In this document: positions 21,221 to 40,807 of the stretch, in pieces
Position numbering within the stretch: the stretch's first letter is position 1
How the letters are laid out: each line of letters starts with the position of its first letter
Assembly: GCA_902801565.1 (NCBI GenBank)
Contig: CADCIX010000006.1
Coordinates: forward strand, 10,070-74,069
Direction: 5' to 3'
DNA length: 64,000 nucleotides
From: an uncultured Veillonellaceae bacterium
GTDB taxonomy: Bacteria; Bacillota; Negativicutes; Selenomonadales; Selenomonadaceae
Notes under the pieces: generated by a model
Told to the model about the DNA's origin: nothing
The model's input: the letters and a program-made list of their open reading frames with translations, nothing else
Database searches by the model: none
Made by a program: the position numbers and the translations under genes

Positions 21221-21228
21221 CAGGGCAT

Positions 21229-21258: not shown

Positions 21259-21276
21259 GATGTACCAAACAAAACT

Positions 21277-21555: not shown

Positions 21556-21811
21556 TTTCAAATCCACCGCCTTTGGAAAACTCTATAATGAGATGTGCCG
21601 TACTTCTCACGATATCCAAATAATGATTTACTTCGCCTTGCTCAAATCCAAATACATCATCCAATCGGTAACTCGGAAGATAACATGTCATGTGATGAAA
21701 ACAATCCTTTTCATCCGGTTTCTCTATGTAAACTTTTACCTCGTCATTCTCCAACAACTCGGAATGTACGATTTCAGTTCCATCATCCAATATCAAAAAG
21801 GGGTACATCAT
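21539..21811 (-). CDS. Small hypothetical protein overlapping the DUF4160 gene start
   Basis: About 90 aa starting at MMYPFLILDDGTEIV. Overlaps the downstream gene by 17 bp. No family recognised (does not resemble DUF2442). Confidence 0.45.
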   Translation of the reverse strand: MMYPFLILDDGTEIVHSELLENDEVKVYIEKPDEKDCFHHMTCYLPSYRLDDVFGFEQGEVNHYLDIVRSTAHLIIEFSKGGGFENAANF

Positions 21812-21856
21812 TGCATTCACCTTCCATTCACCCTGCTGCCTCCTCAAAGAGAGCCA

Positions 21857-24551: not shown

Positions 24552-24552
24552 A

Positions 24553-25746: not shown

Positions 25747-25794
25747 ATACAGATACACCTCTATAGATTATTGCTCGATGATTGCTCCTTATTG

Positions 25795-26421: not shown

Positions 26422-26428
26422 TACGTCT

Positions 26429-26457
26429 ATTATATATGAAACCCATTCATTTGTGAA
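26429..26457 (-). promoter_or_regulatory. Predicted sigma-70-type promoter giving a leaderless TetR mRNA
   Basis: Minus strand reads TTCACA, 17 nt, TATAAT, AGACGTA, ATG. The palindrome ATTCA-N4-TGAAT (26445-26458) overlaps the -35. Confidence 0.5.
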
Positions 26458-26471
26458 TCCATAATTTCTTC

Positions 26472-26500
26472 TTGACAACAATGCAGGCGAATGCTATGAT
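26472..26500 (+). promoter_or_regulatory. Predicted promoter of the solitary tRNA-Arg
   Basis: TTGACA, 17 nt, (TGc)TATGAT, located 28 nt upstream of the tRNA 5' end. Confidence 0.6.
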
Positions 26501-26528
26501 ATTACACGTTGGCGGAAGCCAGCACCAT

Positions 26529-26606
26529 GACTCAGTAGCTCAGCTGGATTAGAGTATTTGACTACGAATCAAAGGGTCGGGGGTTCGAGTCCCTCCTGGG
26601 TCACCA
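26529..26606 (+). tRNA. tRNA-Arg (anticodon ACG), CCA encoded
   Basis: GACTCAG TA GCTC AGCTGGATTA GAGT A TTTGA CTACGAA TCAAA GGGTC GGGGG TTCGAGT CCCTC CTGGGTC A CCA folds as a cloverleaf and closely resembles E. coli tRNA-Arg(ACG). Confidence 0.92.
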
Positions 26607-26618
26607 TAAGAAAAGTTC

Positions 26619-26650
26619 AAGCCCATCGGTACATGCCGATGGGCTTTTTT
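26619..26650. terminator. Terminator after tRNA-Arg, shared with the convergent secreted-protein gene
   Basis: AAGCCCATCGG-tacatg-CCGATGGGCTTTTTT. Confidence 0.75.
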
Positions 26651-27822
26651 CAACGCTCCGTATGAACTATGGTCTCTTCTTTCTTCTTCTCCTTCTTTTC
26701 CTCGCCGGGAGCGAGAATCAGGAGTGCTGGCAGGTTGGAGGCCCCGGGAGGGGAATATTCGATGGCTGTTCCCTTGTAAGGAGGATAAAGGCCAAGATCG
26801 GCAAACTCGAAATCCCGTGAGAAAACCATTTTCTCATCATATCTTTCCGGCAAGCCGAAAGGTGTCTTTTCCCCAAAGTAAAGCTTTCCTGTCGGCGTCT
26901 CCACCAGACGTATGCCTTCCTTGTGCTTCACGCGCACAGCACCCGCATAGACACCACCAAGGGGGCTGAGGAGGAAATGGGTCGGCGACTTGCCCTTCGT
27001 TGGAATCTCAAAGCGATAGCGTACCCCGTAATTCCCGTAATTCTGGACAGCGCTCCCATCCGTGGCATCGATTCCCATCTTGTAGACATCGCTCTTGTTG
27101 TCCCCAATGGGAATATACACCATGCCATCCTTCTGCGGGTCATAGATACGCTTTGCCGTTATCGTGCGGTTCATGCCCTGAAAGGTCCCCCGAAGGGCAT
27201 ACTCATCGCGGGGAAGGACCTTGGCGGTTTCCGCAAAAAACACGGGATCGGAATACTCGGAGCAGAACACCACCGTCACCCGGACAGGAGAGGATGCCCG
27301 GATGTCATAGATACCGGAAACGAGTTCGCCGGGTTCCAGGAGAACATCATTCATTTTCGATGAAAGAACCCTTCCGCCCCCGCCTTCAATAGAAAAGGTT
27401 TTTTCCGTCTGGGGCATCGACATATAGCCAATCTCCGTCTCCTTCCCCACTTGCGGATAATTGTTGCTCGGTCTTGAAATCGCAGACCGCAGGATCTTTA
27501 CCTTCGCACGCCTGTCCCCCTCATTCCTGATAACAACTGCGGCCTTTCCGGGCCTGCCTGTCTCATTCAGATGATAATAAAAGATCCTGGCATCCCCTTC
27601 GACCACATCCGAGTAGAGGATCCCATGTTCCTTCACATACTCCGGGCTGTCAGAAAACAACAACACCCCCCCGGAATCCTTCGTCTCCACCGGCCATGGA
27701 TTCATCACACGCACATAGAAACCGCTTTCTTCATCTGCATAGTGGTCCGCAGATACCATGCCCGGAATGAGCCAGGCCATGCATCCTGCCAAAACACTTC
27801 GCAGAACAGATCTCCAATTCAT
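26650..27822 (-). CDS. Secreted hypothetical protein (about 390 aa) with K/E-rich C-terminal tail
   Basis: MNWRSVLRSVLAGCMAWLIPGMVSA signal peptide. AGGAAG lies 8 nt upstream of ATG 27822. No motif recognised. Confidence 0.6.
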   Translation of the reverse strand: MNWRSVLRSVLAGCMAWLIPGMVSADHYADEESGFYVRVMNPWPVETKDSGGVLLFSDSPEYVKEHGILYSDVVEGDARIFYYHLNETGRPGKAAVVIRNEGDRRAKVKILRSAISRPSNNYPQVGKETEIGYMSMPQTEKTFSIEGGGGRVLSSKMNDVLLEPGELVSGIYDIRASSPVRVTVVFCSEYSDPVFFAETAKVLPRDEYALRGTFQGMNRTITAKRIYDPQKDGMVYIPIGDNKSDVYKMGIDATDGSAVQNYGNYGVRYRFEIPTKGKSPTHFLLSPLGGVYAGAVRVKHKEGIRLVETPTGKLYFGEKTPFGLPERYDEKMVFSRDFEFADLGLYPPYKGTAIEYSPPGASNLPALLILAPGEEKKEKKKEETIVHTER

Positions 27823-27849
27823 CTTTATACTTCCTTTCACTACGAACTT

Positions 27850-29409
27850 TCATTTGCGCTTGTCCAGGTTACCCCCCATTTCTGGCAAGAGGGGCCTTCC
27901 TCCCGCAAACGGTGACCGCCGGGACGGAGGACTTTCCTGGCCAGGCTTCGTATTTTGCGCCGGCCTGGAAGGATTTGCCGAACCAGGAACAGGATCCTTG
28001 ACGTTTCTCAATTCCTTCATCTGCTGCTCCAAGGCCAGCAACCGTTTTGCCAAGGATTCCTGCCCCTTTTTGAGATCAACCGCCAATGCCTCCCAGTCAA
28101 TCTCATCTGCCCCTGTCTGCCCAGCCATTCCCTTCCCTTGGGATTTCTCTTGGGAGCCCGCCTCCAAATCCCTGGAAACAAACACATGATGAAAGGGAAC
28201 AGAAAAGGTCTCGAAGGCCGAATAAAACGCCACGTTTCTCTGAAACATCCTCTTTGCCGTCTCGGTGTGGTACAGCAGAATCGTCTTCCTTGCAAGATTC
28301 ACGCTGGCCACCCGATAAATGCCCGCAGCGACATAGCCCTGCACGTAGTTCCCGCTCACCGAGACAAAAAGATCCACGAGCAGATTCCCGTCATAGTACA
28401 CCTTGTGGGGATACCTTGCGCTCTCAAGCATCTCCCGGGTCAGTGGAACCCTGTTCTTTTCATCCATCAACAGCTCTCCGTTTCCCGCTCTGCTGCGCCT
28501 TGCCAAAATCCTGCTGCGGCCGATCTTTTTCCTTGCAGCGGGCACCGGGATTTCCTGGGGACGCGTTGACTCAAGCACTGCGGCAAAATCAAATGCGTGT
28601 CCAAAAACAGGCTGCCTGAACTTCCCGAAAAGAATCTCTCTCAAAAGGCTTTTCTGCTTTACCAGAATAGCCTCTCCATCAAAGACAAGATACCCGCTTT
28701 TCCATAACCGCAGAAGTTCCTCATATTTCCCCATGGATTCCACATTCAGCCCATGCGGAACCAGATCCTTGGAAAACCAGGCATGGACTGACTGCATTGC
28801 ATCCATGCCGGAACTGTCCTCCTCATGCAGGCGGCAGATCGGCACCAGAGCAACCTTCCCTCCGCTGCTGTACCAGCCATCCCGCCCATTCACCCAACAC
28901 CAATGGGATTCCTTGCCGCGAAGTTCCTTCGTCAGTATCACGGTATTGTAAACGGTCTCGGGAAAATGGGAAAATCCCCCGGTGCTTTGCAGGTAAGGGT
29001 TTCCGGTATTGGCCATGAAGCTCTTCCGAAATTCCCTCTGGGTCATCGGGACAAAATGAAACCCTTCAAAATCCAGCCCGCGATAGGATCGCACCGGTTG
29101 TTTCGAGGTATCAAAGACAGGCAGGTCTATTGCCTCAAACATCGGGAACAACGCTGCATTGGCACGATCAAACCAGACCTTCTTGTTTTTCATTTTGACG
29201 AAATGACGATTTGCCAATGGCCGGATATCCTCCAAAAAGGACAGGACATCCTTGGACAATGCTTCGACTCTTTCCAGCATCGCATGAGCCGCCAATACCT
29301 GTTTCTCCAAGGAAAACAGCCGCTTCCCCAAAGAAGCGAAGCCCTTCTGCACCCCCAGCAAGGCTGCATCGTATCTTGGGAGAGTCTTCGCACCATCCAC
29401 CACATTCAC
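27850..29409 (-). CDS. Hypothetical protein (about 519 aa) with the same coiled-coil motif at both termini
   Basis: Long ORF on the coding strand of its neighbours, with a 10-bp gap to the downstream gene. The start may be GTG 29409, 29403 or 29400. No family recognised. Confidence 0.6.
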   Translation of the reverse strand: MNVVDGAKTLPRYDAALLGVQKGFASLGKRLFSLEKQVLAAHAMLERVEALSKDVLSFLEDIRPLANRHFVKMKNKKVWFDRANAALFPMFEAIDLPVFDTSKQPVRSYRGLDFEGFHFVPMTQREFRKSFMANTGNPYLQSTGGFSHFPETVYNTVILTKELRGKESHWCWVNGRDGWYSSGGKVALVPICRLHEEDSSGMDAMQSVHAWFSKDLVPHGLNVESMGKYEELLRLWKSGYLVFDGEAILVKQKSLLREILFGKFRQPVFGHAFDFAAVLESTRPQEIPVPAARKKIGRSRILARRSRAGNGELLMDEKNRVPLTREMLESARYPHKVYYDGNLLVDLFVSVSGNYVQGYVAAGIYRVASVNLARKTILLYHTETAKRMFQRNVAFYSAFETFSVPFHHVFVSRDLEAGSQEKSQGKGMAGQTGADEIDWEALAVDLKKGQESLAKRLLALEQQMKELRNVKDPVPGSANPSRPAQNTKPGQESPPSRRSPFAGGRPLLPEMGGNLDKRK

Positions 29410-29525: not shown

Positions 29526-29551
29526 AAAAAAAGCGCCGCTTTCGCGACGCT
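29526..29551 (-). terminator. Terminator of the tRNA operon
   Basis: Minus strand reads AGCGTCGC-gaaa-GCGGCGCT TTTTTTT. Confidence 0.75.
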
Positions 29552-29561
29552 TGCCTTTTCG

Positions 29562-29647
29562 TGGTGGGCAGGGATGGATTCGAACCATCGTAATCCGAAG
29601 ATGACAGATTTACAGTCTGTTGCCTTTAACCACTCGGCCACCTACCC
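29562..29647 (-). tRNA. tRNA-Tyr (anticodon GTA), long variable arm, CCA encoded
   Basis: Reverse complement is GGGTAGGTGGCCGAGTGGTTAAAGGCAACAGACTGTAAATCTGT...GGTTCGAATCCATCCCTGCCCACCA. Confidence 0.9.
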
Positions 29648-29651
29648 ATGA

Positions 29652-29729
29652 TGGTGACCCAGGAGGGACTCGAACCCCCGACCCTTTGATTCGTAGTCAA
29701 ATACTCTAATCCAGCTGAGCTACTGAGTC
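29652..29729 (-). tRNA. tRNA-Arg (anticodon ACG); sequence matches the 26529-26606 copy
   Basis: By manual comparison, the reverse complement matches the plus-strand copy over all 78 nt. Confidence 0.92.
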
Positions 29730-29747
29730 ACAAAACTATGTAATTTT

Positions 29748-29824
29748 TGGTGGGCCCACTTGGACTCGAACCAAGGACCGACCGGTTATGAGCCGGTTGC
29801 TCTAACCAACTGAGCTATAGGCCC
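29748..29824 (-). tRNA. tRNA with CAT anticodon (Met by anticodon; resembles lysidine-type tRNA-Ile2)
   Basis: GGGCCTATAGCTCAGTTGGTTAGAGCAACCGGCTCATAACCGGTCGGTCCTTGGTTCGAGTCCAAGTGGGCCCACCA. The anticodon stem-loop GGCTCATAACC is like Bacillus tRNA-Ile(CAU). Confidence 0.85.
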
Positions 29825-29873
29825 ATAGATATATTGATTTCTGCCGGCAAATCCAGCAAAACCAACTGCAAAA

Positions 29874-29948
29874 TGGAGCGGAAAACGAGGCTCGAACTCG
29901 CGACCCCCACCTTGGCAAGGTGGTGCTCTACCACTGAGCTATTTCCGC
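29874..29948 (-). tRNA. tRNA-Gly (anticodon GCC), copy 1
   Basis: GCGGAAATAGCTCAGTGGTAGAGCACCACCTTGCCAAGGTGGGGGTCGCGAGTTCGAGCCTCGTTTTCCGCTCCA. Confidence 0.92.
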
Positions 29949-29952
29949 AGAA

Positions 29953-30027
29953 TGGAGCGGAAAACGAGGCTCGAACTCGCGACCCCCACCTTGGCAAGGT
30001 GGTGCTCTACCACTGAGCTATTTCCGC
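29953..30027 (-). tRNA. tRNA-Gly (anticodon GCC), copy 2 (tandem duplicate)
   Basis: Same 75-nt sequence as copy 1 by manual comparison, separated from it by 4 nt. Confidence 0.92.
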
Positions 30028-30073: not shown

Positions 30074-30102
30074 ATTCTAATCATTTATCGGTCTTTTGTC
30101 AA
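30074..30102 (-). promoter_or_regulatory. Predicted promoter of the five-tRNA operon; its -35 overlaps the helicase stop codon
   Basis: Minus strand reads TTGACA, 17 nt, TAGAAT, located about 45 nt upstream of the first tRNA-Gly. Confidence 0.6.
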
Positions 30103-33100
30103 GCATTTTTTTCATTTTTTTCATCAGCCAGCAAATCCTCCCGCCTCCATTCCTCGCGAATCCGTGCTGCGGCTTCCAGCACCCTTGCCAAAAGCTCTTC
30201 CCGCGCTTTCCCTGCAGAATGGCCGGCATCTTCCTTCCCCATCGGCAAGATCCCATATCGGCGAAGCTCTTCCTCCATGTCATCCATGGCACTCTCCGGG
30301 GAACGATAAAACCTGCTGCCCCGAAGCCGCAGGAATACCCATCCCAAACGCTCCAGCACTGCCTGTTCCTTCTGTGCTTCCAAAAGACAGTTCTCATCAT
30401 CCTCCCCGTCCTCGCCTTCACAGGAAACAGCGACCCTGCGGCCAGAAGACAGGACCGCCATATCAATCCGATAGGCGCCCACGGGCCACCGCTCCTCTAC
30501 GCGAAACCCCCGCTGACGGAGCCTCTGTGCCACCTCCTGATGGAACGCCGGCACAGGCCCCCCTGCCGTTCTACCTCCCGACAACATCATGGAATCCTCC
30601 GGGGAGGCCGCATATTCCAGAAGGCCGCGCCGAAGACCGCCTTCCTCCAGTTCCTCGATGCCCATGGAATGAAGCACCCATAGCTGATCCCTGGCCCGAC
30701 TGGCCGCAACATTATAGTTCCGCTTTTCGGCATCGACCGGTTCCTTCCCGGAATCCATCTCCTGCACCGATGCTGCATCATCCACCATGGAAAGGAAGAT
30801 GACATCCCTTTCATCTCCCTGGAAATTCATGGGGGTGCCCGCCAGGAAATTCCTTTCCTCCAAACGCGGAATGCCGATGCGCCGCAGGGCAATCTCCCGT
30901 ATCAGGCGCCCCTGGCCATCCCCCAGCAGCGAAATGGCGCCAAAGGTCTTGCCCTCATACTCCGATTGCTCCATACAGGCCATCATGAGCACGACAATCT
31001 CCTCTGCCTCCTTCCAATTCACTGGCCGCTCCCCGTCCCTCACACCATCCACCTCATAGGAAACCACAGGTTTCAGCGTACTCCCTCCGGATTCCCGGAG
31101 AGGCTGTATGAGATTCTGGTAGACAAGCTGGTTGGAATAACCGATAATTTCGGGAACAGAACGGAAATGCTCCTTGAACATGCGCGTCTCGAAATACATC
31201 CGGGCGATATCATAGAGGGAATTGTCCAGAACATAGGGATTTGCATATCCATCTCCCTCGAAAAGAGAAGGCACTCCGAGGCCGGACACCTCATCCTCTG
31301 ACAGATCGATCGGTTCCGGAGCAACCTGCTTGTCATCCCCCACGACAATCACCTTGTGTCCGAAATAAAGCAGGGGCAGCGATGTGATATCCGCCTGGCT
31401 TGCTTCATCCATGATGATGACATCGAACTTCCTGCTCTCCGGCTGCAGATTTTCCCATACCTTGTCCAAGGGCATGATCCATACCGGCACGGCAGACTGC
31501 AGTTCCATCGTCTGTTTCCGGGCCATGCGGACGCGACGGGAAATGTTCCTCCCTGCGTCCCTTCCTGCTTTTTTCACCGCCCTGCTCCAGCTCATGAGCG
31601 TCGCACGAATGCCGCTGTCTGCAACCTCCTGGAAAAAATTCCGCCATGCCAATTTTTCCACCAAACCGGCCGTGATTTCATGAAGCTGCTCCAACTGCCG
31701 GTGCAAAGCCCCATCCAAGCCTGCCACATCCTCCCCGGCCGCCTTTGCCAATTGCTGGACAAACTGCCGGCATTTCCATGCATCCTCAAGAGCAGCCGGC
31801 ACCTCTGCCATACCGGAGCTTCCATGCTGGCGGGCTATGCCCGCTGCCCAGTCGGGGGCAACCGACGCTAGCCGCGCCAGAAAATCCGTCCGCTCCTTGA
31901 ACTTGTCCATCAGGCTTTCATAGTGGAGCAATTTGTCATAGTCCTTGCGATACGCCTCGCTGCTCCCCCCCTGCAAGGCAACAGCCAGACGCTTTGCGAG
32001 CTGGGAACGCCGTTCCGCTAATTCTGCGACACGCTTGCGGAAATTTCCCATCAATGCCTGTTTTTCGATGCATTCCAAGCGAATCAGTGCAGCACACTGC
32101 GGCCAGGACTCCTGAAGCCAATGGATCTCCATCGCCATCTGCTGGCGCGGTGTCATGAACCTCTCATCCTCCGGCAGGATCTTTTCCAGCTTTACCCCCG
32201 CCTCATCCAGATGTTTCTGAAAGGATTCCCTGCGATTATCGTACCAGTCAAGGCAATACTGAATCTGCTCCCAGCGGGCGCTGCAGATATCATCCACATC
32301 ATCCGAGGAAATCCAGAGCTCCTCATAGGTTGGCTCACCGCACCGTCCCAGAAGATGGTCCCATTCCTGCTGCACCCGCCGCCGCGCCTGCTGCAGGCTG
32401 AGATATCTCTCCGCCACCATACAGTCCTGGTCACTCCGAAGGCCATGGCCGTCAACGAGGATCTTCTGTGAAAGCCTGCGCCAGCTTCCATGAAGGATTT
32501 TCTGCAAAATGGACAGCTCTCCCTTACGGGCAAAGGTCTCCCGCATATCCGCCAGCTCCCTGAGCACCCGCTCATCATACATTATCTCTTCCGGGCATTC
32601 CACCGAACGCCCCAATAGCGGAATCACGGCTGCATCCTTGCAGGTCCGCACCCGCCTAATATCCTCGCCCAGCTGCTCCCATGCCATCCGCGCAGTTCCG
32701 CCCTGCCTGCCTGCCAGTACAGCTTCTCTGGCCCAGACGGACTCCATCCATGCAAAATCGATCTGCCGATAATCTGCCTCCGCCGTCAGGAATGCGTCCA
32801 TCTGAAAATCCGCCACAACCTGCTCATGACGGTAAAAGATCTGCTCCTCCTCCACAGTCCAGTCCGGCAACTCCTGCAAGAGGCCGCGTTCCCGCTCACC
32901 CAGGATTTCCTGTTCCTGCAAGAGATTCTCCACATCTACAGGGGACAGGAGCCTGCCGCTCTTCGGCAGATTCTCCGCCATTTCCTTCAGGTCCTGACGG
33001 CTGAACAAACCGTTGCTGGCATAAAGCAGGGCCAGTTCCTCTGCCGTCAGGGGGATTGCCTTCCCCTCCCCGACCTTTCCCGGGACAATTTCCAATAAAT

Positions 33101-34643
33101 GCTCATGTTCATGGACAAACCTGGCCATTCCAGAAAGGGAATACGCTTCTCCCCCGAAGGAAAAGAAGTCCCTCCTGTGTTCCATGCGTCGGACAGCGGC
33201 TGCCTTCTCACGGGAATCGCCGAGCAGCTTCCGGGCTTCCTTCCATTTTCGGCGCGCTTCCTGGGCCTCATACTCCATATCCTCTGTGGTGGAGCTTCCC
33301 AGCACATCGCAGATTCCCTCCACGGAACGTTCCAAATCCCGATAGGAATCCCCCTGCAGGGAAACACAGAGATTGCGGATCCCCTCCGGGAGCATGCCTT
33401 TCAGGATGCGCAATGCCTTGGGCGTTGAGCTCGTCACCAGCACGCGGTTTCCCCTTGCCAGGAAATGCCCCAACAGATTTGCAATGGTATGCGTCTTTCC
33501 CGTACCGGGAGGCCCCTGTACCACCACAGCAGAGGATTCCTCCAGTTTCCTGGCAATTCCGATCTGTTCCGCATTGGCGGATTTGACCAGAAGGATATCC
33601 TCGGACTCTCCCCTTGCATCCGCCAGGGTCTCCCTGCGGCAGGACACATTCCTCTCCGATGCCCTGGCATCCACAATATCCAGGAGGGGCAAGGGAACAT
33701 CGCCCTTATCCGCAATGCGTTCCATGATTCCCGAGAGCAATCTTTCTTTTCTCGAATGCTTCCTGCGCAGGAAAAGCACAGGACGGGCATAGAGAATATA
33801 CCAGTCCGTAGGCAGGATATGGAACCCTTCTGACGCATAACGGCATTTGGGACTAAGCAGGGAGGCCATATCTTTCAAGAGAGCTTCCCCAACGTCCTTC
33901 TGCAAAGGATGGATACCGGACCTCCCAACTTTCCTTTGTGCTGCACGGAGTGCCTCTTCACCCACATCCTCCTGCCCAAGGAAAAGCTCACTATAGAACT
34001 CCAGTTCCTCCCTGGCATCCACAAGCTGCATGTGCTCCTTTTCCGTATAGCGCACCTGCACCTTTTTGAGCAACAAGGGATGATGCAGACGGGAATCCAG
34101 ACCACTGTAGAAGAAACCATTTCCCGCCATGAGTTCCATCTTCTCTCCATCCCGGCGGCAGCGCTCATATATGCGGTAGAGGTCATCGAACAGATGCTTC
34201 GCCTGTTGTTTCAGCCGCTCTTTCTTGCGCCACTTCTGCCTGGCCTTCTTCCACTCTGAAAAATTCCTGACGCGCCGCTCGCTGTCATGGAAGCGCATGA
34301 CAATGCTTCCCATCTGCTCCGTGGTTTTCGCCAGTTCCGAATGCACCTTGACCTCATCCACGTGAAAATCTTCCCATCGGGGCGTTGCAATCCAGCCCGC
34401 CAGGGCATCCGGCAAAGCAGGGCATGGGGAAAACTCCGGACGGCCTACATCCAAAAGGATTTCGCTCCCATCCTCGTCTTTACCAGCAAAAAAACGAAGT
34501 CCGCCTCCTTCAGATTCCAGCTTGTCCAGATAGAGCACCCACTCCTGTTTCTCAATATCTGTCACGGTTTTATATTGCAAAACACAGATCTGGCGAATAT
34601 ATTCCAACAAGGCCAGAACTTTTTCCTGCTTCTCACGGCTCAT
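30099..34643 (-). CDS. 1514-aa SF1 (Upf1/DNA2-like, AAA_11/AAA_12-type) helicase with a C-terminal Vsr/DUF559-like endonuclease fold
   Basis: Helicase motifs seen: GPPGTGKTHT (aa 377-386), IIMDEASQ (aa about 1076-1083), VVGDDKQ, FQGDERDVIFLS and NVAASRARDQLWV. The C-terminus reads YRIDMAV...VAVSCEGE...LERLGWVFLRLRG. The ATG overlaps the upstream stop (ATGA). Confidence 0.85.
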   Translation of the reverse strand: MSREKQEKVLALLEYIRQICVLQYKTVTDIEKQEWVLYLDKLESEGGGLRFFAGKDEDGSEILLDVGRPEFSPCPALPDALAGWIATPRWEDFHVDEVKVHSELAKTTEQMGSIVMRFHDSERRVRNFSEWKKARQKWRKKERLKQQAKHLFDDLYRIYERCRRDGEKMELMAGNGFFYSGLDSRLHHPLLLKKVQVRYTEKEHMQLVDAREELEFYSELFLGQEDVGEEALRAAQRKVGRSGIHPLQKDVGEALLKDMASLLSPKCRYASEGFHILPTDWYILYARPVLFLRRKHSRKERLLSGIMERIADKGDVPLPLLDIVDARASERNVSCRRETLADARGESEDILLVKSANAEQIGIARKLEESSAVVVQGPPGTGKTHTIANLLGHFLARGNRVLVTSSTPKALRILKGMLPEGIRNLCVSLQGDSYRDLERSVEGICDVLGSSTTEDMEYEAQEARRKWKEARKLLGDSREKAAAVRRMEHRRDFFSFGGEAYSLSGMARFVHEHEHLLEIVPGKVGEGKAIPLTAEELALLYASNGLFSRQDLKEMAENLPKSGRLLSPVDVENLLQEQEILGERERGLLQELPDWTVEEEQIFYRHEQVVADFQMDAFLTAEADYRQIDFAWMESVWAREAVLAGRQGGTARMAWEQLGEDIRRVRTCKDAAVIPLLGRSVECPEEIMYDERVLRELADMRETFARKGELSILQKILHGSWRRLSQKILVDGHGLRSDQDCMVAERYLSLQQARRRVQQEWDHLLGRCGEPTYEELWISSDDVDDICSARWEQIQYCLDWYDNRRESFQKHLDEAGVKLEKILPEDERFMTPRQQMAMEIHWLQESWPQCAALIRLECIEKQALMGNFRKRVAELAERRSQLAKRLAVALQGGSSEAYRKDYDKLLHYESLMDKFKERTDFLARLASVAPDWAAGIARQHGSSGMAEVPAALEDAWKCRQFVQQLAKAAGEDVAGLDGALHRQLEQLHEITAGLVEKLAWRNFFQEVADSGIRATLMSWSRAVKKAGRDAGRNISRRVRMARKQTMELQSAVPVWIMPLDKVWENLQPESRKFDVIIMDEASQADITSLPLLYFGHKVIVVGDDKQVAPEPIDLSEDEVSGLGVPSLFEGDGYANPYVLDNSLYDIARMYFETRMFKEHFRSVPEIIGYSNQLVYQNLIQPLRESGGSTLKPVVSYEVDGVRDGERPVNWKEAEEIVVLMMACMEQSEYEGKTFGAISLLGDGQGRLIREIALRRIGIPRLEERNFLAGTPMNFQGDERDVIFLSMVDDAASVQEMDSGKEPVDAEKRNYNVAASRARDQLWVLHSMGIEELEEGGLRRGLLEYAASPEDSMMLSGGRTAGGPVPAFHQEVAQRLRQRGFRVEERWPVGAYRIDMAVLSSGRRVAVSCEGEDGEDDENCLLEAQKEQAVLERLGWVFLRLRGSRFYRSPESAMDDMEEELRRYGILPMGKEDAGHSAGKAREELLARVLEAAARIREEWRREDLLADEKNEKNA

Positions 34644-36418
34644 GCGCCCTTCTCCTCCGCAGCATCTTCCTGTTCCTTCGTTTCCTGTGCTTTTTTCGCT
34701 TCTTCCTTTTCCATCCGGGCAAACGCTTTGGGATCGATCTCCTTCAGATATTCCTTGGGAATCTCAGCCTTGGAATCCAGGGTATGAAGCGTCCGGTAGG
34801 CGTCCAAGGCCTGCTCCCTCTGGTCCATCTCATCGTAGAGCTCCGCCGTGAGAAGCCATGCTACTGCGCTCTTTTTATCCAATTCCCTTGCCTTGGCACA
34901 GTCCTCCATTGCCTTTTCCCGATCTCCCATCATACGATAGATATCCGCCCTGTTCAAATAGTTCAAGGCATTACTCCCATCCATGCGAATGCCCTTCCCG
35001 GCATCTTCCAACGCCCCGGCAAAATCCCCTGCCACGGCCTTGGCCCTGCCGCGGATCACATAGCATTCCGCCATGTTGTCCTGCTTCTCGCTTTTCATGG
35101 CCCGTTCCATCTCCACCATAGCCATCTCACTCATGCCATAGTCGCTGTAGGCATCGCTGTTGTAACGGAGCTTTTCCGCAAACTTCTTGTCCGCGGACAA
35201 TGCCTGTTGCCGGATCTTCTCAAGCTCATCCATCCGCTTTTTCTCTTTCTCCTGAAGCTTCGCCCGGCCTTCTGCATCAGCTTCCCTGCCATAGGCTGCG
35301 GCCACCAGGGTTTCCAATCGCTGCATCGTTTCCCCATTTCCGGCAAACTCCTTCAGGATACCATAGACCCGGTCATCCGTGAGGCAATCCATTCTCCCCT
35401 GCTCCGTGCGGAAATTCCATCCCTCGATCGTGTCATGGTCATGGAATGCCTTGGCAAGAGCCCCGGCAACACCATAGGCATTCTCCACGGTATTGTCATA
35501 GCTCGCCCCCGTATCTCCCACGGAAAGGAAGAGCTCCCCATCGATGAGCACATCCTTCTGGTCGCGTATCGTCACATGCCCGCAGCTGTACTCCGTCATC
35601 AGCTCTGCCAGGCGCTTCTCGCGATCCTCTGTCTCCGGATGGTCGCTGTACTCCGTCTGGCCTTTCTTGTCCGGGCTGTCAAACTCATACATATCCCGGG
35701 TCTCATAGCGAAGGTAATGCTGCATGCGAGCCATTGCTGCGGCAGGCCCCCCGGGATTGAACCCGGCACTCGTCATGAGGAAGAAGCCTTCCTCATCCGC
35801 CTCTGCCTCCGTAGGCATCGTGACATTCGTGGCAATGGAATACCCCACAAGCCCGTTGAGTTTCTGCCAGTCAACGTTATTCGTCTCCATGCCGAGAAGG
35901 GTGATTCCCATGGCCTGCGCCACTGCCTGGGCATAATTGTGGGCGCTGTGCTGCCTGAGTCCATGCACCATCTCATGTGCCAGCACCGCTGCAATCTCGT
36001 CCTCATCAGAGTTGAGTCCCCGCACCAGCCCACGATTCACGCTGATGTAATTCGTCGGATAACAGGAAGCATTGAAGAGCTTGCTGTCATTCACTGCCCA
36101 TAGAAAAGGAAGCGAATTCACCTGCATCGCATAGTCTCCCTTATCGATGAGCTGCTTCATGACACGATCCACCAGCTGCACATCCATCGGGTTCCTGTCC
36201 TGCCCATTCTCCCGAAGATCCTGCCTGCGGCTGCTCACCTGGGCGTGGACATTATTGCCCATGCGCAGAAGATCCGTCAATGCCGACTTGTACATGCCGT
36301 AAATCCCCAATGCCTGGGCCGCTATCGCCCAGGGATCCGGGGAAGATGCCAGAGCCTTCCCTTGCGGCAGGATCCCCAAGGCAGCCACAAGCAAAACAGC
36401 AATCCATCGTTTCCACAT
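34640..36418 (-). CDS. Exported M48-family zinc metalloprotease with C-terminal TPR repeats (BepA-like architecture)
   Basis: Signal peptide MWKRWIAVLLVAALGILPQGKALA. HEMVH at aa 148-152, with a downstream EAEADE. The C-terminal approx 150 aa carry TPR-like repeats (AECYVIRGRAKAVAGDFAGALED..., ALNYLNRADIYRMMGDREKAMED...). Confidence 0.8.
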   Translation of the reverse strand: MWKRWIAVLLVAALGILPQGKALASSPDPWAIAAQALGIYGMYKSALTDLLRMGNNVHAQVSSRRQDLRENGQDRNPMDVQLVDRVMKQLIDKGDYAMQVNSLPFLWAVNDSKLFNASCYPTNYISVNRGLVRGLNSDEDEIAAVLAHEMVHGLRQHSAHNYAQAVAQAMGITLLGMETNNVDWQKLNGLVGYSIATNVTMPTEAEADEEGFFLMTSAGFNPGGPAAAMARMQHYLRYETRDMYEFDSPDKKGQTEYSDHPETEDREKRLAELMTEYSCGHVTIRDQKDVLIDGELFLSVGDTGASYDNTVENAYGVAGALAKAFHDHDTIEGWNFRTEQGRMDCLTDDRVYGILKEFAGNGETMQRLETLVAAAYGREADAEGRAKLQEKEKKRMDELEKIRQQALSADKKFAEKLRYNSDAYSDYGMSEMAMVEMERAMKSEKQDNMAECYVIRGRAKAVAGDFAGALEDAGKGIRMDGSNALNYLNRADIYRMMGDREKAMEDCAKARELDKKSAVAWLLTAELYDEMDQREQALDAYRTLHTLDSKAEIPKEYLKEIDPKAFARMEKEEAKKAQETKEQEDAAEEKGA

Positions 36419-36430
36419 ATCCGCAACCCC

Positions 36431-38059
36431 TCAAAACATGATCTTGCACTCAAACATACGATTCCATGGGAAACTCACCTTCAGGTTCTGCCACCCATTA
36501 AAAGAAGGAAAGTTCCTCTCCGCAAATTCCCTCAGAAGTGCGCCGACACGATTTTCCTCTTCCGTGCGGAAACCATCCAGCCGTCCATAGGCTTCTGCAT
36601 GCCCTGCCATCCGCAGCTCATTTTCCACAGCGCCTCGTACATTGGCCTGATATGCCCAGTCATCAAGATAGCGGCGAAGCAGGAGCCGCTCCCGTCCCGC
36701 ATCGGTCATCTTGTTGGACAGCATCCCTGTTCCCAGCGCGAAGCCGGAACTATTGGTCGCCGTGTTCCATCCGGAATACGCACGAAGCCTTCCCAGCAGG
36801 CCTTCCTTCCACAGATTCTCCATCAGTGCATTATCGGAACCATTGGCAAAGGCGATATCCGCAATCCCCACAGGATACCCTTTGGCGAGGCAGTCCTTCA
36901 GAAGGTCGAAGAAATACATGGAGCCATCCCGCGCATTTCCGTCATTGACCATCGGTGCAGAGCCCGGCACGGAAAAAGATGCCTCCCCTGTTCTCCCCTG
37001 AGGATCCGTATTCACCAACAGGACGAAATCCGCCTTGCCCGGTTCGGGAACCAGCATGCCGCCAGCCACCACCACAGAATCACGAATGGAATCCCCGATG
37101 TGCTCGTCGGAATAGGAAGGAATCGTATCCGCACCCGTGCCCTCATTGTACAACACATAGACAAAGGGAACCTCATTCTGCAAATCGTTGACCGCCCGCG
37201 TCAGGAGCAGCAGGTTGAATTCATCGATTCCCGTCATGGACTTGAACTGGCTCCCGGCCATTCCCCTTGTCGCGGCATAGGACTTGAGCTCCCTGTTTTC
37301 CTTATGTGTCTGGCAAAGAGGCGCATTGTCATCCCGACCGACAACGAAGCATTTCGCAATGCCTTGCTTCGTCAAGTCCATCAGCTGTTTCGTGGCGGAG
37401 AGGTTCTTCTCCCGACGGTTCATCCAGTCCAGCAATACCTCCGAGGGGATGCGCTGCCGGACCTCTTTCATCTCTGCTTTCTCCTGGGCGGAAAGATGCC
37501 CCATCTCCTCCTTGTCCTTGAGTGCCGTATAGCGAAAGATATCCGCGCCGTAATCATTGTAGTACTCCGGCTCCTCATTTCCGGAATAGATCCCGCTCTT
37601 CGGCGTCCGCATCAGGGAGCCGAAAAGGTACAGCCTGAGTTTCGGATACTTGTCGTGAAACTGCTTGAACCGTTTCACCCTCTCATCGATTTTCACCTGT
37701 GCAATCTCATGTTTCCGCGAGGGAATCAATCCCCCATAAAGCATGGAATCCGTGGAGACCACCGCTGCCTGCGCAGATTTTGCATTTTCCTCCAGCCATT
37801 TCCACAATCCATCGGGATTCCCCGGTTCTTCCAGGGCGCGGGACAACAAATCCTCCGGCGGCATCACCAGTTCATAGCCGGCCTGTTCCACCACCTCCGC
37901 CGTCTGCTGCATGGAAATCGGACGGTTGTCGTGGGGAATGAAGATGATCTTCTCCGCGCACTCTGCGCTGCCTCCCCATCCCAGCATCACAAAAACGGCC
38001 AGGCATGACAGCAACAAAATGCGGCAAATCCCTGTTTTTCTCTGTATCTTCTCTTTCAT
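36431..38059 (-). CDS. DUF4127-family protein with N-terminal signal/anchor
   Basis: MKEKIQRKTGICRILLLSCLAVFVMLGWGG, then IIFIPHDNRPIS and STDSMLYGGLIPSR, as in DUF4127. ATG at 38059 follows GGAGAA. The listed ORF start at 38224 overlaps the upstream gene. Confidence 0.75.
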   Translation of the reverse strand: MKEKIQRKTGICRILLLSCLAVFVMLGWGGSAECAEKIIFIPHDNRPISMQQTAEVVEQAGYELVMPPEDLLSRALEEPGNPDGLWKWLEENAKSAQAAVVSTDSMLYGGLIPSRKHEIAQVKIDERVKRFKQFHDKYPKLRLYLFGSLMRTPKSGIYSGNEEPEYYNDYGADIFRYTALKDKEEMGHLSAQEKAEMKEVRQRIPSEVLLDWMNRREKNLSATKQLMDLTKQGIAKCFVVGRDDNAPLCQTHKENRELKSYAATRGMAGSQFKSMTGIDEFNLLLLTRAVNDLQNEVPFVYVLYNEGTGADTIPSYSDEHIGDSIRDSVVVAGGMLVPEPGKADFVLLVNTDPQGRTGEASFSVPGSAPMVNDGNARDGSMYFFDLLKDCLAKGYPVGIADIAFANGSDNALMENLWKEGLLGRLRAYSGWNTATNSSGFALGTGMLSNKMTDAGRERLLLRRYLDDWAYQANVRGAVENELRMAGHAEAYGRLDGFRTEEENRVGALLREFAERNFPSFNGWQNLKVSFPWNRMFECKIMF

Positions 38060-38123
38060 AGAATTCTCCAAAATCATCCCCCTCAACGAATCACCCGCTT
38101 CACATGGTTTCCTTCTGAACTTT

Positions 38124-39314
38124 TCATGTTTCCTCATCCTTTGCCATGCAGCAGTTCTTGTATTTCTTCCCGCTGCCGCAGGGACAGGGATCGTTTCTTT
38201 TTGCCTTCGCCTTATGCTGCCCAAAGGGAACCACCTTCCCCTTGCTTTCCCCCATAAGTTCCCCGGGGGTGTGTCCCTTGAGGGGCCAGAGATGTGTGGA
38301 ATTGTTGAAATCCATCAGCAGGGGAACCATCGCCTTTGCCTTGCGGTCATCTGCCATGAGGCCAAGCTCCTCAAGATATTCCACCACATCCTTCATGGCA
38401 TTGCCGTTCTGCAGCAGGATAAGGATTTCCCCCACCACATCCGCTGCTTTGAGGACATCGTATCCATGCTCCTTCATGATGAACTGCGCCAGTGCCTTAT
38501 AGGCATCCGTCGCTTCAATATAATTGTCCTCCCCTGCCTCATAGACCTTGTCATAAGGCAATTTGACAAAGTCCAGATTGCTGCGGCGGCACTGCTCGTT
38601 CTCCAGTTTGTCTGCACTGATGAGAGTATAGTATTTCATTCCATGGGGAAGTGCCCCGATGTTCTGCTTCCAGCATGCCGCATTGAGCATGATGCCCACG
38701 AAATCCATAAAGGAAACGGTCTCCCGCGCCTCCTTCTCCAGATATCCTCCCACCATACCATAGAGCTGGTCAAAATTCAGATAACCGCAATAAAAGAGCA
38801 GCCCCGTTGCCAGTCTTGCAATTTCCGTATTGAGTTCCACCGCACTGCGGAAAACACCAGAATCAATCTTCCGAAACTCCTCCTGTATCTCCTCCGGCAT
38901 GTACCAGGCGAGCTTTTCCTCCTGCACGCCGCAGGAAACAAGCCCCAGCCCCATCAGATAATCCAGTCGGATATCATCATCCCGAAGTTCCGTGGAGATG
39001 CCGGAATGTTCCATGAGATGGCGGAAACAGCCGTATTCCTCTTCCAGCATGGACGGGAACCAGCGACGGGAAAACTCCGGCACCGCCTCCGCCAGTCTTT
39101 CCACCAGTTCGTCCTTCTTCAGGGAACTGATCCCTGTCACATTGAGGTTATAGCAGATATCCTCCAACGTCGTCTTCGTCATACCGGAAAGGGCACTTCT
39201 CAAATCTCTTTTCTCCGGAAGTTTGTGGCGATAAAGCTGTTTGCGCCGTTCCTCCTTTGCCGCCGCTTCCAAATTTTCCAATTCTTTCGTGATATCGATT
39301 TCTTTAGGTTTCAA
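38124..39314 (-). CDS. SEC-C motif protein with an N-terminal SAP/Rho-N-like helix-hairpin
   Basis: C-terminal DPCPCGSGKKYKNCC (nt 38148-38186). N-terminal LEDICYNLNVTGISSLKKDELVERLAEAV. TTG start at 39314 follows GGAGAT. Confidence 0.75.
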   Translation of the reverse strand: MKPKEIDITKELENLEAAAKEERRKQLYRHKLPEKRDLRSALSGMTKTTLEDICYNLNVTGISSLKKDELVERLAEAVPEFSRRWFPSMLEEEYGCFRHLMEHSGISTELRDDDIRLDYLMGLGLVSCGVQEEKLAWYMPEEIQEEFRKIDSGVFRSAVELNTEIARLATGLLFYCGYLNFDQLYGMVGGYLEKEARETVSFMDFVGIMLNAACWKQNIGALPHGMKYYTLISADKLENEQCRRSNLDFVKLPYDKVYEAGEDNYIEATDAYKALAQFIMKEHGYDVLKAADVVGEILILLQNGNAMKDVVEYLEELGLMADDRKAKAMVPLLMDFNNSTHLWPLKGHTPGELMGESKGKVVPFGQHKAKAKRNDPCPCGSGKKYKNCCMAKDEET

Positions 39315-39413
39315 GCTCTTTCATCTCCAATATAACATAATCCTGCCCCTGCTTTGGGCATGTTGATAAATTACGCCAGCACACCTTAAAAGTTCATACT
39401 ATATATCATGATA

Positions 39414-39469
39414 TTATCCACAAATCGTTTTCCACAGCCTGTGGATAATGTGGATATTTCCGTGGATAA
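39414..39469. promoter_or_regulatory. Cluster of five DnaA-box-like 9-mers
   Basis: TTATCCACA (39414-39422, perfect), TTTTCCACA (39428-39436), TGTGGATAA (39440-39448, perfect, inverted), TGTGGATAT (39449-39457) and CGTGGATAA (39461-39469). Confidence 0.7.
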
Positions 39470-39539
39470 ACAAATATCCTGCCCTTTATTCTATCACGTG
39501 AAAGACTTGCGGGCAAACTATTTGCCCGCCCTGTCTGCA

Positions 39540-40685
39540 TCAAGAAATCCTCAATAAAGATTCAAAATATCCTGCCATGTGATTTTCCCTCAAATACTCG
39601 CGGATAATCCTCATGGCATCCCTATTGTGGTCCAGCCGCTCTGTCAGGCGGTCAATGCCAAGGAGAACCTCCTCAAATCCCATCCCCCCCTGCGCCGACA
39701 TCATCAGCAATGCAAACTCCATCACCTTCCATGACAGGACGAAGATCCGCGCATTCTCCTCCATGGACTCGGGATAGGCGTAGGGATAAAAACGAAGGAA
39801 GAACTCATTGGACAGGTAATTCTCGAACAAGGAGCGATGCTCCTGCAGAAGCTGTTTTGCAAAAACGGGATACTGTCCTTCATAAATTTCCAGCAATACC
39901 CCCAAGCGCTCCTCATCCGACGGTGCCCCGTAGAGTGCATGGAACAGCTCCATCATGGCGCGGATGTATCCTGTCCTCGAAAATTTCCCGTCGCTCCCCT
40001 CTTCCAAGACACGAAGGGAAAACTCCCCGGACTCCACATCCTCCAACAGCCTCCCAAAGCCCTTGCCATCTCCTGCCTCCAACAGGACTTCCGCCCGCCT
40101 GTAAAAAGACAGCAGGGAAAACAGGCACTGGTCAAGGGTGAGCCTCCTGTCCTGCAAAAGCCAGATACCCGCCGACTGCAGATCCTGCCAGTCCTCCCCA
40201 TGCTGCCCCACCTTATCCGTCATATCGAACTGCCAGCCCCTTCGCTGCTCTTCCCTCTCTTCCTCCACAAAACGAAGGGGCCCGTCCTGTCCCAGGAGCA
40301 ATCTGGCCGCCACAGGACAGCTCATGGCCAGGGACTGCTCCACAACCTCCCCGATCCGATAAGTCACCCGGGGATAGGAATAGCAGATGTCCGACAGAAA
40401 TTCCTCCCCATAGTCCTTCTGCAGGCGGCAGAGACTATCCTCCCGCAGAAATGGGCACCTCCTGTCCTCCCGAAGACGCACCGGATAATTCCCCTTCTCG
40501 TCCTGCCCGGAGAACCACCCGCAAATCTCATCGCACACATCCCTTGGCTCCATCCCTTGATACTTCTCATATGTCCCAGGGTCCACCGCCACGCTCCAAT
40601 CCCTGCAGCAGCGACTGCCACACGCCTTCCCGTCACATCGAAACTGCCCCACATATTCCGGATATATATACGTCACCATGCTCAT
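39540..40685 (-). CDS. FliB-family flagellin lysine-N-methylase-like protein
   Basis: YPEYVGQFRCDGKACGSRCCRDWSVAVDPGTYEKY matches the FliB N-terminal Cys cluster (F.C.G.AC...CC..W.I.(L/V)D). About 380 aa. Confidence 0.7.
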   Translation of the reverse strand: MSMVTYIYPEYVGQFRCDGKACGSRCCRDWSVAVDPGTYEKYQGMEPRDVCDEICGWFSGQDEKGNYPVRLREDRRCPFLREDSLCRLQKDYGEEFLSDICYSYPRVTYRIGEVVEQSLAMSCPVAARLLLGQDGPLRFVEEEREEQRRGWQFDMTDKVGQHGEDWQDLQSAGIWLLQDRRLTLDQCLFSLLSFYRRAEVLLEAGDGKGFGRLLEDVESGEFSLRVLEEGSDGKFSRTGYIRAMMELFHALYGAPSDEERLGVLLEIYEGQYPVFAKQLLQEHRSLFENYLSNEFFLRFYPYAYPESMEENARIFVLSWKVMEFALLMMSAQGGMGFEEVLLGIDRLTERLDHNRDAMRIIREYLRENHMAGYFESLLRIS

Positions 40686-40807
40686 CCCAACCACTCCAAA
40701 AATAGCATTTGCCTTTTATCACAGCAAATGCTAGAATTCTCATATCACTATTATATCATAGGACAATAAAAAGTACCTCAAGAAACCAATGACAGCAGGT
40801 GATTCCC

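What the first reader, a model, noticed from the sequence alone, without database searches (positions are those of the whole stretch)
30099..39314. Tightly packed four-gene cluster mixing exported and cytoplasmic proteins: SEC-C/SAP-like, DUF4127, M48/TPR protease, helicase-nuclease
Seen in the sequence, four co-directional genes have very short junctions:
- SEC-C stop at 38124 to the DUF4127 start at 38059.
- DUF4127 stop at 36431 to the M48 start at 36418, with the RBS overlapping the stop.
- The M48 stop and the helicase start overlap as ATGA at 34640-34643.

I found no terminator-like hairpin between them. Two products have signal/anchor sequences (DUF4127, M48/TPR). The other two look cytoplasmic and nucleic-acid associated: the SEC-C zinc knuckle protein with a SAP/Rho-N-like helix pair, and the helicase-nuclease.

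The 4-bp overlap suggests translational coupling between a periplasmic protease and a giant cytoplasmic helicase. That combination is unexpected, and I do not know it as a described system.

Inference: it is either a fortuitous operon or an envelope-sensing-plus-nuclease module.
Basis: partly seen in the sequence, partly recalled or inferred. Interest (0 to 1): 0.7.

Follow-up and report, generated by a model that had tools for sequence, protein, structure and literature searches.

The report
Chance four-gene string in rumen bacterium
Four tightly packed genes in a rumen Selenomonadaceae genome are real and probably share one transcript, but their relatives sit apart in other genomes, so this looks like an ordinary chance neighbourhood, not a new envelope-sensing nuclease system.

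Summary
Such packing is the norm here: 6 of 57 consecutive minus-strand ORF pairs overlap by 4 bp.

The quartet occurs only in the same species (a goat-rumen Selenomonadaceae MAG). In relatives each gene sits elsewhere:
- The SEC-C protein lies beside amidase/MatE or HD/recO genes.
- DUF4127 lies beside pckA or a SpoU methylase gene.
- The M48/TPR protease is solitary in Selenomonas and Mitsuokella.
- The helicase is a stand-alone gene in 79 other species across many phyla.

Only the M48-helicase adjacency persists, and only in a narrow clade (helicase 49-95% identical), always after metG-tatD-3D. I read the cluster as a fortuitous, probably co-transcribed string at a variable spot, not an envelope-sensing nuclease module.

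Two side leads:
- The Vsr-like nuclease signature (D-E-D-H, kept in 71/71 distant homologs) is degenerate in the whole rumen clade. The window protein reads D-S-E-E.
- A DnaA-box cluster heads the string. Among all fetched DNA, such clusters occur only here and directly upstream of the helicase orthologs of rumen Selenomonas.

Interest is low for the cluster and moderate for the helicase lead.

The parts
39488..39516 (-). Sigma-70-like promoter candidate (TTGCCC, 17 nt, TG-n-TAGAAT) at the head of the four-gene string.
   Evidence: 9 of 12 matches with an extended -10 TG. It aligns with the TAGAAT element upstream of the Selenomonas helicase genes. This is a consensus match only; no transcript data exist.
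39361..39469 (.). DnaA-box cluster: six TTATCCACA-like sites (two perfect, four with one mismatch) in the 225-nt gap upstream of the SEC-C gene.
   Evidence: 25 sites in the window against 10.4 +/- 3.4 in shuffles, and both perfect sites are here; comparable clusters in 2.1 Mb of fetched loci occur only in L006 (same position) and just upstream of the helicase orthologs in L007, L008, L009 and L170.
38124..39314 (-). Cytoplasmic 396-aa protein with a C-terminal SEC-C zinc motif (CPCGSGKKYKNCC). The rest is uncharacterised.
   Evidence: PF02810, E 1.2e-10; Rho_N below cut-off. (only the motif matches solved structures); full-length homologs lie in other contexts.
36431..38059 (-). DUF4127 family protein of 542 aa with an N-terminal signal peptide or anchor.
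   Evidence: PF13552, 505 bits, full length. (hydrophobic N-terminus). (AlphaFold2 pLDDT 90; helix 2-28, then a low-confidence linker); no PDB fold match.
34640..36418 (-). Exported M48 zinc metalloprotease with C-terminal TPR repeats (HEMVH at residues 148-152, EAEAD at 204).
   Evidence: It is conserved at 52-55% identity across Selenomonas and Mitsuokella.
30099..34643 (-). 1514-aa Upf1/Sen1-like SF1 helicase with a C-terminal Vsr-like REase_MTES_1575 domain. The motor motifs are intact; the nuclease signature is degenerate (D-S-E-E instead of D-E-D-H).
30074..30102 (-). Strong promoter-like site (TTGACA, 17 nt, TAGAAT; 11 of 12 matches) whose -35 hexamer contains the helicase stop codon. 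It probably drives the tRNA array.
29562..30027 (-). Array of five tRNA genes (Gly, Gly, Met, Arg, Tyr) directly downstream of the helicase.
29531..29552 (-). Intrinsic terminator (9-bp GC-rich stem followed by TTTTT) that ends the tRNA array. It is the first convincing terminator downstream of the cluster.

Best explanation
The four genes are a species-specific, probably co-transcribed string of functionally unrelated chromosomal genes. They were brought together by local rearrangement at a variable spot between the conserved metG-tatD-3D block and a tRNA array, in a rumen Selenomonadaceae (a Negativicute, so a bacterium with an outer membrane).

Each product most likely works on its own:
- The M48/TPR protein is an exported, BepA-like periplasmic quality-control protease.
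- DUF4127 is an exported protein of unknown activity.
- The SEC-C protein is a cytoplasmic zinc-motif protein.
- The large protein is a member of a cross-phylum, stand-alone SF1 helicase/Vsr-like family. In this rumen clade it keeps its ATPase motor but has lost the nuclease signature.

Shown: gene order, junctions, domains, lack of conserved co-localisation, and motif states. Inferred: a single transcript from the promoter near 39.5 kb, export of the two proteins, loss of nuclease activity, and possible DnaA control through the box cluster in the leader.
For: - The quartet occurs only in the same species: L006 (94% identity, a goat-rumen Selenomonadaceae MAG) and the identical contigs L001 and L002.
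- L005 (M48 69%, helicase 65% identical) and L086 (59% and 49%) keep M48-helicase after metG-tatD-3D but lack SEC-C and DUF4127. They carry other genes there instead: a FliB_C-like gene, or a PAS-GGDEF-EAL gene.
- M48 orthologs at 52-55% identity in Selenomonas GACV-9, Mitsuokella AF33-22 and another Selenomonadaceae MAG have no helicase beside them.
- DUF4127 orthologs sit beside pckA/HAD or SpoU genes.
- Eighteen full-length SEC-C homologs sit beside AMIN-amidase/MatE/lepA or HD/recO genes.
- In 80 species with a full-length helicase homolog, only L006 has any of the three partners. No neighbour family recurs in more than 12 of the 80 loci.
- All 120 listed M48 homologs keep HExxH, and all 11 whose N-termini were inspected have a signal-peptide-like N-terminus, so the paired copy is not repurposed.
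- 4-bp overlaps and short junctions are the local norm.
- PADLOC has no hit for DUF4127 or M48. No mobile-element repeats flank the cluster.
Against: - The M48-helicase adjacency, with overlapping stop and start (4 bp, or 14 bp in L086), has survived divergence down to 49% helicase identity while the genes just upstream changed. That could reflect selection for co-expression.
- The DnaA-box/promoter module at the head of the string resembles the one directly attached to the helicase gene in rumen Selenomonas. This hints that expression of the whole string may be organised around the helicase.
- No transcript data exist.
- Genome-wide copy numbers could not be checked.
Confidence: 0.72

Rival explanations
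1. The M48/TPR protease and the helicase form a lineage-specific functional pair. Translational coupling through the overlapping stop and start fixes their stoichiometry, linking an envelope protease to a cytoplasmic nucleic-acid motor.
For: The overlap and adjacency are conserved in the window, L006, L005 and L086. The upstream genes vary while the pair stays together.
Against: - Outside this clade both genes exist but lie apart.
- The protease keeps its signal peptide, so the two products end up in different compartments.
- In the same genomes the metG-tatD-3D synteny is equally conserved, so the adjacency needs no special selection.
- 4-bp overlaps are common in this window.
Confidence: 0.1
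2. The cluster is an anti-phage defence locus. The helicase is an Hhe/ProA-like single-gene defence protein inserted next to a tRNA array, and the neighbouring genes act as accessories.
For: - Partial profile matches to ProA, Hhe, PDC-S37 and MkoC.
- Hhe is a helicase with a Vsr endonuclease domain whose nuclease-site mutation abolishes defence (bioRxiv 10.1101/2022.06.16.496414).
- A tRNA array lies directly downstream, and the adjacent region varies between relatives.
Against: - Scores are far below the family cut-offs: ProA 174 versus 1500, Hhe 96.5 versus 2000. There is no DUF4011 hit.
- The Vsr-like signature is degenerate in the whole rumen clade.
- The gene is vertically conserved in Selenomonadaceae. 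The family is absent from 50,697 phage records and rare on plasmids (42 of 72,556).
- DUF4127 and M48 have no PADLOC hit.
- No integrase or att-like repeats are present.
- A related large DUF4011 gene is a core gene in P. aeruginosa, which shows that such helicases need not be mobile defence genes (PMC10250203).
Confidence: 0.06
3. The string is a DnaA-responsive transcription unit whose ancestral and relevant member is the helicase. The promoter and DnaA-box leader that directly precede the helicase gene in rumen Selenomonas were kept at the head, and three unrelated genes came to lie between the leader and the helicase. This is compatible with the best explanation as far as the other three genes are concerned.
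For: - Six DnaA boxes lie at 39361-39469, just downstream of a TAGAAT -10 element.
- Clusters of at least three boxes in 2.1 Mb of fetched DNA occur only in L006 (same position) and in the 5' leaders of the helicase orthologs in L007, L008, L009 and S. ruminantium TAM6421, L170.
- The promoter and box regions align collinearly.
- SEC-C homologs elsewhere lack the boxes.
Against: - L005 and L086, the closest lineages with M48-helicase, have no DnaA boxes upstream of M48 or the helicase, so two losses or an independent origin are required.
- Mitsuokella (L010) and oral Selenomonas (L171) orthologs lack the boxes.
- DnaA-box arrays are constrained motifs, so the similarity may be convergent.
- In L006 an extra ~100 nt with a TATAAT lies between the boxes and SEC-C.
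- Neither DnaA binding nor transcription has been tested.
Confidence: 0.25

Closest known systems
Hhe (single-gene anti-phage helicase with a Vsr-like endonuclease domain) and NCBIfam 'anti-phage protein ProA'
   Same: A large stand-alone protein that combines an Upf1-like SF1 helicase core (AAA_11/AAA_12) with a C-terminal Vsr/DUF559-type REase_MTES_1575 domain. It gives partial profile matches.
   Different: - There is no DUF4011 domain, and scores are 10-20 times below the family cut-offs.
- The nuclease signature D-E-D-H is replaced by D-S-E-E.
- The gene is chromosomal and conserved in the family, not on phages, and rare on plasmids.
- In rumen Selenomonas the gene is preceded by a DnaA-box cluster.
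BepA (beta-barrel assembly-enhancing protease; periplasmic M48 protease with a TPR domain) of Proteobacteria
   Same: Signal peptide, M48 HExxH catalytic domain and C-terminal TPR repeats, in a bacterium with an outer membrane.
   Different: It scores only 33.5 bits against the BepA equivalog model (cut-off 570) and matches over the protease core only. There is an extra ~160-residue middle region and a charged C-terminal tail. Its function in Negativicutes is untested.
DnaA-box clusters outside oriC that bind DnaA and regulate adjacent genes, as described for Bacillus subtilis (from my own knowledge, not checked in the literature here)
   Same: Several closely spaced consensus TTATCCACA boxes in both orientations, in an origin-proximal intergenic region next to a promoter. 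The gene order yaaR-holB-yaaT...metG-tatD-yabE in L005 matches the origin-proximal region of B. subtilis (the match is from my own knowledge).
   Different: The downstream genes are a SEC-C protein and, in related genomes, an SF1 helicase. I do not know either as a DnaA-regulon member. Binding and regulation are untested.
Ordinary bacterial operons of unrelated genes with overlapping stop and start codons
   Same: Co-directional genes, junctions of -4 to +64 nt, no internal terminator, and a ribosome-binding site inside the upstream gene.
   Different: Nothing distinguishes it. The same junction types recur throughout the window.

Membership tests
Conserved multi-gene system (quartet, or M48-helicase pair) | The genes co-localise in several independent lineages | tested here: not met
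   The quartet occurs only in the same species. The pair occurs only in one narrow clade that shares local synteny. No partner gene lies beside the helicase in 79 other species, and homologs of the other three genes show separate contexts.
Operon (single transcription unit) | Co-directional genes with short junctions and no internal terminator | tested here: met
   Junctions are +64, +12 and -4 nt. No convincing terminator lies between 30099 and 39314.
Operon (single transcription unit) | One transcript spans all the genes | not testable with these tools
   This needs RNA-seq or 5'/3' end mapping of the organism, which is known only as a MAG.
Upf1/Sen1-like SF1 helicases | Walker A, Walker B and motifs III-VI intact | tested here: met
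   GPPGTGKT at 377, DEASQ at 1079, and GDDKQ, QGDERD and YNVAASRAR are invariant in a 12-sequence alignment. The nearest solved structures are Sen1, Upf1 and IGHMBP2.
REase_MTES_1575 / Vsr-like endonuclease domain | Domain present by profile | tested here: met
   PF18741 scores 73.6 bits against a cut-off of 38.2, over residues 1367-1460.
REase_MTES_1575 / Vsr-like endonuclease domain | Conserved acidic/histidine signature (RIDM...ECDG...H) | tested here: not met
   The window protein reads D-S-E-E. All 35 homologs at or above 39% identity are degenerate, while 71 of 71 more distant homologs keep D-E-D-H. That these residues are catalytic is inferred from their conservation and from knowledge of Vsr/DUF559; it was not assayed.
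Hhe anti-phage protein | DUF4011 N-terminal region and full-length match to the family model | tested here: not met
   Pfam gives no DUF4011 hit. NF042953 scores 96.5 bits against a cut-off of 2000, and the PADLOC Hhe match covers the C-terminal part only.
ProA anti-phage protein (NF058533) | Score above the curated equivalog cut-off | tested here: not met
   174.3 bits against a cut-off of 1500.
Peptidase M48 | HExxH zinc site with a downstream glutamate, and a profile match | tested here: met
   PF01435 scores 50.5 bits against a cut-off of 20.3. HEMVH is at 148 and EAEAD at 204.
BepA | Equivalog-level sequence match | tested here: not met
   NF052400 scores 33.5 bits against a cut-off of 570. 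Only the architecture (signal peptide, M48, TPR) is shared.
DUF4127 (PF13552) | Full-length profile match | tested here: met
   505.6 bits, covering profile positions 1-488 of 489.
SEC-C motif proteins | C-terminal CxC...CC zinc motif | tested here: met
   PF02810 scores 41.5 bits against a cut-off of 20.4. The motif matches the SecA and YchJ C-terminal peptides in the PDB.
SAP / Rho_N-like nucleic-acid-binding helix pair | Profile match above cut-off | tested here: inconclusive
   PF07498 scores 16.8 bits against a cut-off of 24.9, E 0.0065.
DnaA-box cluster | At least three consensus TTATCCACA boxes (one mismatch allowed) within about 120 bp | tested here: met
   Six boxes lie in 109 bp, two of them perfect. 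None of 100 shuffles reached the window total.
DnaA-box cluster | DnaA binds and regulates the adjacent genes | not testable with these tools
   This needs ChIP or EMSA and expression analysis.

The most novel reading that the evidence does not exclude
In rumen Selenomonadaceae, a clade of the widespread SF1-helicase/Vsr-nuclease family has lost its nuclease signature while keeping the motor, and has been placed under a DnaA-box leader. It has thus been recruited from a defence-type enzyme into a replication-linked housekeeping role. In the window species the whole four-gene string, including two envelope proteins, would then be read from that DnaA-controlled promoter.
Probability: 0.15. Interest if true: 0.55.

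Novelty: new member of a known kind. Interest (0 to 1): 0.22.

Why it matters
For the cluster itself the result is a useful negative.

What could matter is the helicase. A very widespread but unstudied stand-alone helicase/Vsr family shows a clade-wide loss of its nuclease signature in rumen Selenomonadaceae, together with a DnaA-box leader. If real, this would be an example of a defence-type enzyme domesticated for a replication-linked function, and it would give a handle on what this family does.

Tried and rejected
- **DUF4127 literature:** a full-text search returned no paper.
- **DUF4127 structure:** the AlphaFold2 model is confident (pLDDT 90), but Foldseek against the PDB gave only weak matches (TM 0.25 or less) to sugar isomerases and periplasmic binding proteins. 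The sequence search of the PDB found nothing. No function could be assigned.
- **Defence island:** PADLOC gave no hits for DUF4127 or M48 and only motif-level hits for SEC-C. No flanking direct or inverted repeats were found.
- **Hidden RNA element inside the cluster:** Rfam found only the five tRNAs.
- **Conserved partner of the helicase family:** all-against-all clustering of neighbours in 80 loci found none.
- **Origin of replication at the DnaA boxes:** rejected, because cumulative GC skew falls monotonically across the window.
- **Look-ups that returned nothing:** P0313 and P0158.
- **Not attempted:**
  - No structure prediction for the SEC-C protein, because no permitted alignment was available.
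  - No signal-peptide predictor was available, so export is judged from sequence features only.
  - My greedy ORF caller was misled by long antisense ORFs, so minus-strand-only calls were used for the junction statistics.
Full report
**Observation**

- SEC-C protein, 38124-39314
- DUF4127, 36431-38059
- M48/TPR, 34640-36418
- helicase, 30099-34643

The junctions are as described. There are 64 nt between the SEC-C stop and the DUF4127 ATG. There are 12 nt between the DUF4127 stop and the M48 ATG, with a GAGGGG ribosome-binding site over the stop. The M48 stop and the helicase start share ATGA.

Pfam confirms the domain calls, with one exception. The Rho_N/SAP-like hit is below cut-off.

No convincing terminator lies inside the cluster. 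The only strong one follows the five-tRNA array downstream. A strong promoter-like site (TTGACA-17-TAGAAT) contains the helicase stop codon and probably drives the tRNAs.

DUF4127 and M48 have signal-peptide-like N-termini; the other two proteins do not.

The tight packing is not unusual for this window. Nearly all genes are on the minus strand. Of 57 consecutive minus-strand ORF pairs, 6 have a 4-bp overlap and about 24 have junctions within +/-30 nt.

**Source organism**

The closest genome record is a goat-rumen Selenomonadaceae MAG (L006, 94% identity). Named homologs come from Selenomonas and Mitsuokella. These are Negativicutes, which have an outer membrane (established knowledge). An exported M48/TPR protease is therefore expected to be periplasmic.

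Upstream lie metG, tatD, a glycosyltransferase gene, a 3D/DUF348 gene and a 384-aa gene.

**Is the combination conserved?**

It is not.

*Quartet.* It is found only in L006 and in the identical contigs L001 and L002.

*M48-helicase pair.* L005 (M48 69%, helicase 65% identical) and L086 (59% and 49%) keep M48-helicase with overlapping stop and start, at the same place after metG-tatD-3D. Both lack SEC-C and DUF4127. The genes between the 3D gene and M48 differ in each lineage.

*M48.* Orthologs at 52-55% identity in Selenomonas GACV-9, Mitsuokella AF33-22 and another MAG have no helicase beside them.

*DUF4127.* Orthologs sit next to pckA/HAD or SpoU genes.

*SEC-C.* Eighteen full-length homologs (41-65% identical) sit next to AMIN-amidase, MatE and lepA genes, or next to HD and recO genes.

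*Helicase.* The family is huge and crosses phyla (5453 hits at E<=1e-20). In 80 species-representative loci with 10-kb flanks, only L006 has any of the three partner genes. No neighbour family recurs in more than 12 of the 80 loci. The helicase is therefore a stand-alone gene.

All 120 listed M48 homologs keep HExxH, and all 11 whose N-termini were inspected have a signal-peptide-like N-terminus. The copy next to the helicase is thus the ordinary exported protease.

What remains is a genus-level adjacency, inside a block whose wider synteny is equally conserved.

**What each gene is**

*M48/TPR.* It has the BepA architecture (signal peptide, HExxH protease, TPR) but is not a BepA ortholog, scoring 33.5 bits against a cut-off of 570.

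*DUF4127.* It folds confidently (pLDDT 90) but has no solved structural relative and no literature.

*SEC-C protein.* Only its C-terminal zinc motif is recognisable.

*Helicase.* It is Upf1/Sen1-like with invariant motor motifs and a Vsr-like REase_MTES_1575 domain. That domain was first described fused to SF1 helicases in conflict systems (PMC3710099). It resembles Hhe and ProA only partially and misses their cut-offs by a wide margin. The family is absent from phage records and rare on plasmids. A related large DUF4011 gene is a core gene in P. aeruginosa (PMC10250203).

*Degenerate nuclease signature.* In 71 of 71 homologs at or below 38% identity, the signature RIDM...ECDG...H (D-E-D-H) is intact. 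In all 35 homologs at or above 39% identity, which form the rumen Selenomonadaceae clade, at least two of the four positions are replaced. The window protein reads D-S-E-E. In Hhe a mutation in the nuclease site abolishes defence. I did not map which Hhe residue corresponds. Loss of nuclease activity is therefore an inference, but 'helicase-nuclease' is probably a misnomer here.

*DnaA-box cluster.* The 225-nt gap upstream of SEC-C holds six DnaA boxes, including the only two perfect TTATCCACA sites in the 64 kb. They lie just downstream of a TG-n-TAGAAT -10 element.

Across 2.1 Mb of fetched loci, clusters of at least three boxes occur in only two settings:
- in L006, at the same position as in the window
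- in the 5' leaders of the helicase orthologs of rumen Selenomonas (L007, L008, L009 and S. ruminantium TAM6421, L170)

The regions align collinearly.

This suggests the helicase is DnaA-controlled in this family, and that the string may be read from such a promoter. Several observations weaken the idea:
- L005 and L086 lack the boxes.
- Mitsuokella and oral Selenomonas orthologs lack them too.
- L006 has extra sequence with a TATAAT between the boxes and SEC-C.

**Verdict**

The 'module' reading is not supported. The best explanation is a fortuitous, probably co-transcribed string at a variable spot.

The cluster is of low interest. The nuclease-degenerate helicase clade with its DnaA-box leader is a moderate side lead that needs experiments.

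Noticed in passing
window 39361-39469; L006 5096-5143; L007 1222-1317; L008 260-347; L009 9910-9997; L170 5916-6000: DnaA-box clusters (TTATCCACA-like, both orientations) lie upstream of the SEC-C gene in the window species. In four rumen Selenomonas genomes they lie directly upstream of the helicase ortholog. No such cluster occurs anywhere else in 2.1 Mb of fetched loci.
   Followed up: partly
window 30099-34643, protein residues 1390-1420: The Vsr-like nuclease signature D-E-D-H is conserved in 71 of 71 distant homologs. It is degenerate (D-S-E-E) in the window protein and in all 35 homologs of the rumen Selenomonadaceae clade, while the helicase motifs stay invariant.
   Followed up: partly
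window 30074-30102: A near-consensus promoter (TTGACA-17-TAGAAT) for the tRNA array has the helicase stop codon inside its -35 hexamer. No terminator separates the helicase gene from the tRNAs.
   Followed up: no
L006 4403-4975 versus window 39315-39540: The same-species MAG has an extra 190-aa ORF between the 384-aa gene and the DnaA boxes, and about 100 extra nucleotides with a TATAAT between the boxes and SEC-C. The spot therefore varies even within the species.
   Followed up: no
window 39540-40694; L005 8699-9886; L104 1622-2788: The Cys-rich 384-aa gene upstream has no Pfam hit here. Its L005 homolog is recorded with FliB_C (PF27117). A distant homolog (25% identity) lies 1.2 kb upstream of a SEC-C homolog in L104.
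   Followed up: no
window 36431-38059: The DUF4127 AlphaFold2 model is confident (pLDDT 90, pTM 0.88) but has no convincing structural neighbour in the PDB (best TM about 0.25). It may be an uncharacterised alpha/beta fold of an exported protein.
   Followed up: partly
L087 2621-11746: In another Selenomonadaceae MAG the M48/TPR ortholog ends a co-directional string: a short M48 gene, then MgsA-like AAA, LRR_5, DUF2201, AAA and M48/TPR genes. This is a different and possibly meaningful neighbourhood for the protease.
   Followed up: no
window 20001-22000 (ORFs 21277-21847): A local GC dip (0.48 against about 0.55) contains two small minus-strand ORFs with very low third-position GC (0.36-0.42). 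This may be recently acquired DNA.
   Followed up: no
window 23556-29409: Downstream of the tRNA array lie two uncharacterised proteins (519 and 396 aa, no Pfam family), then two radical SAM genes, one of them with a SPASM domain. This could be a peptide-modification locus.
   Followed up: no
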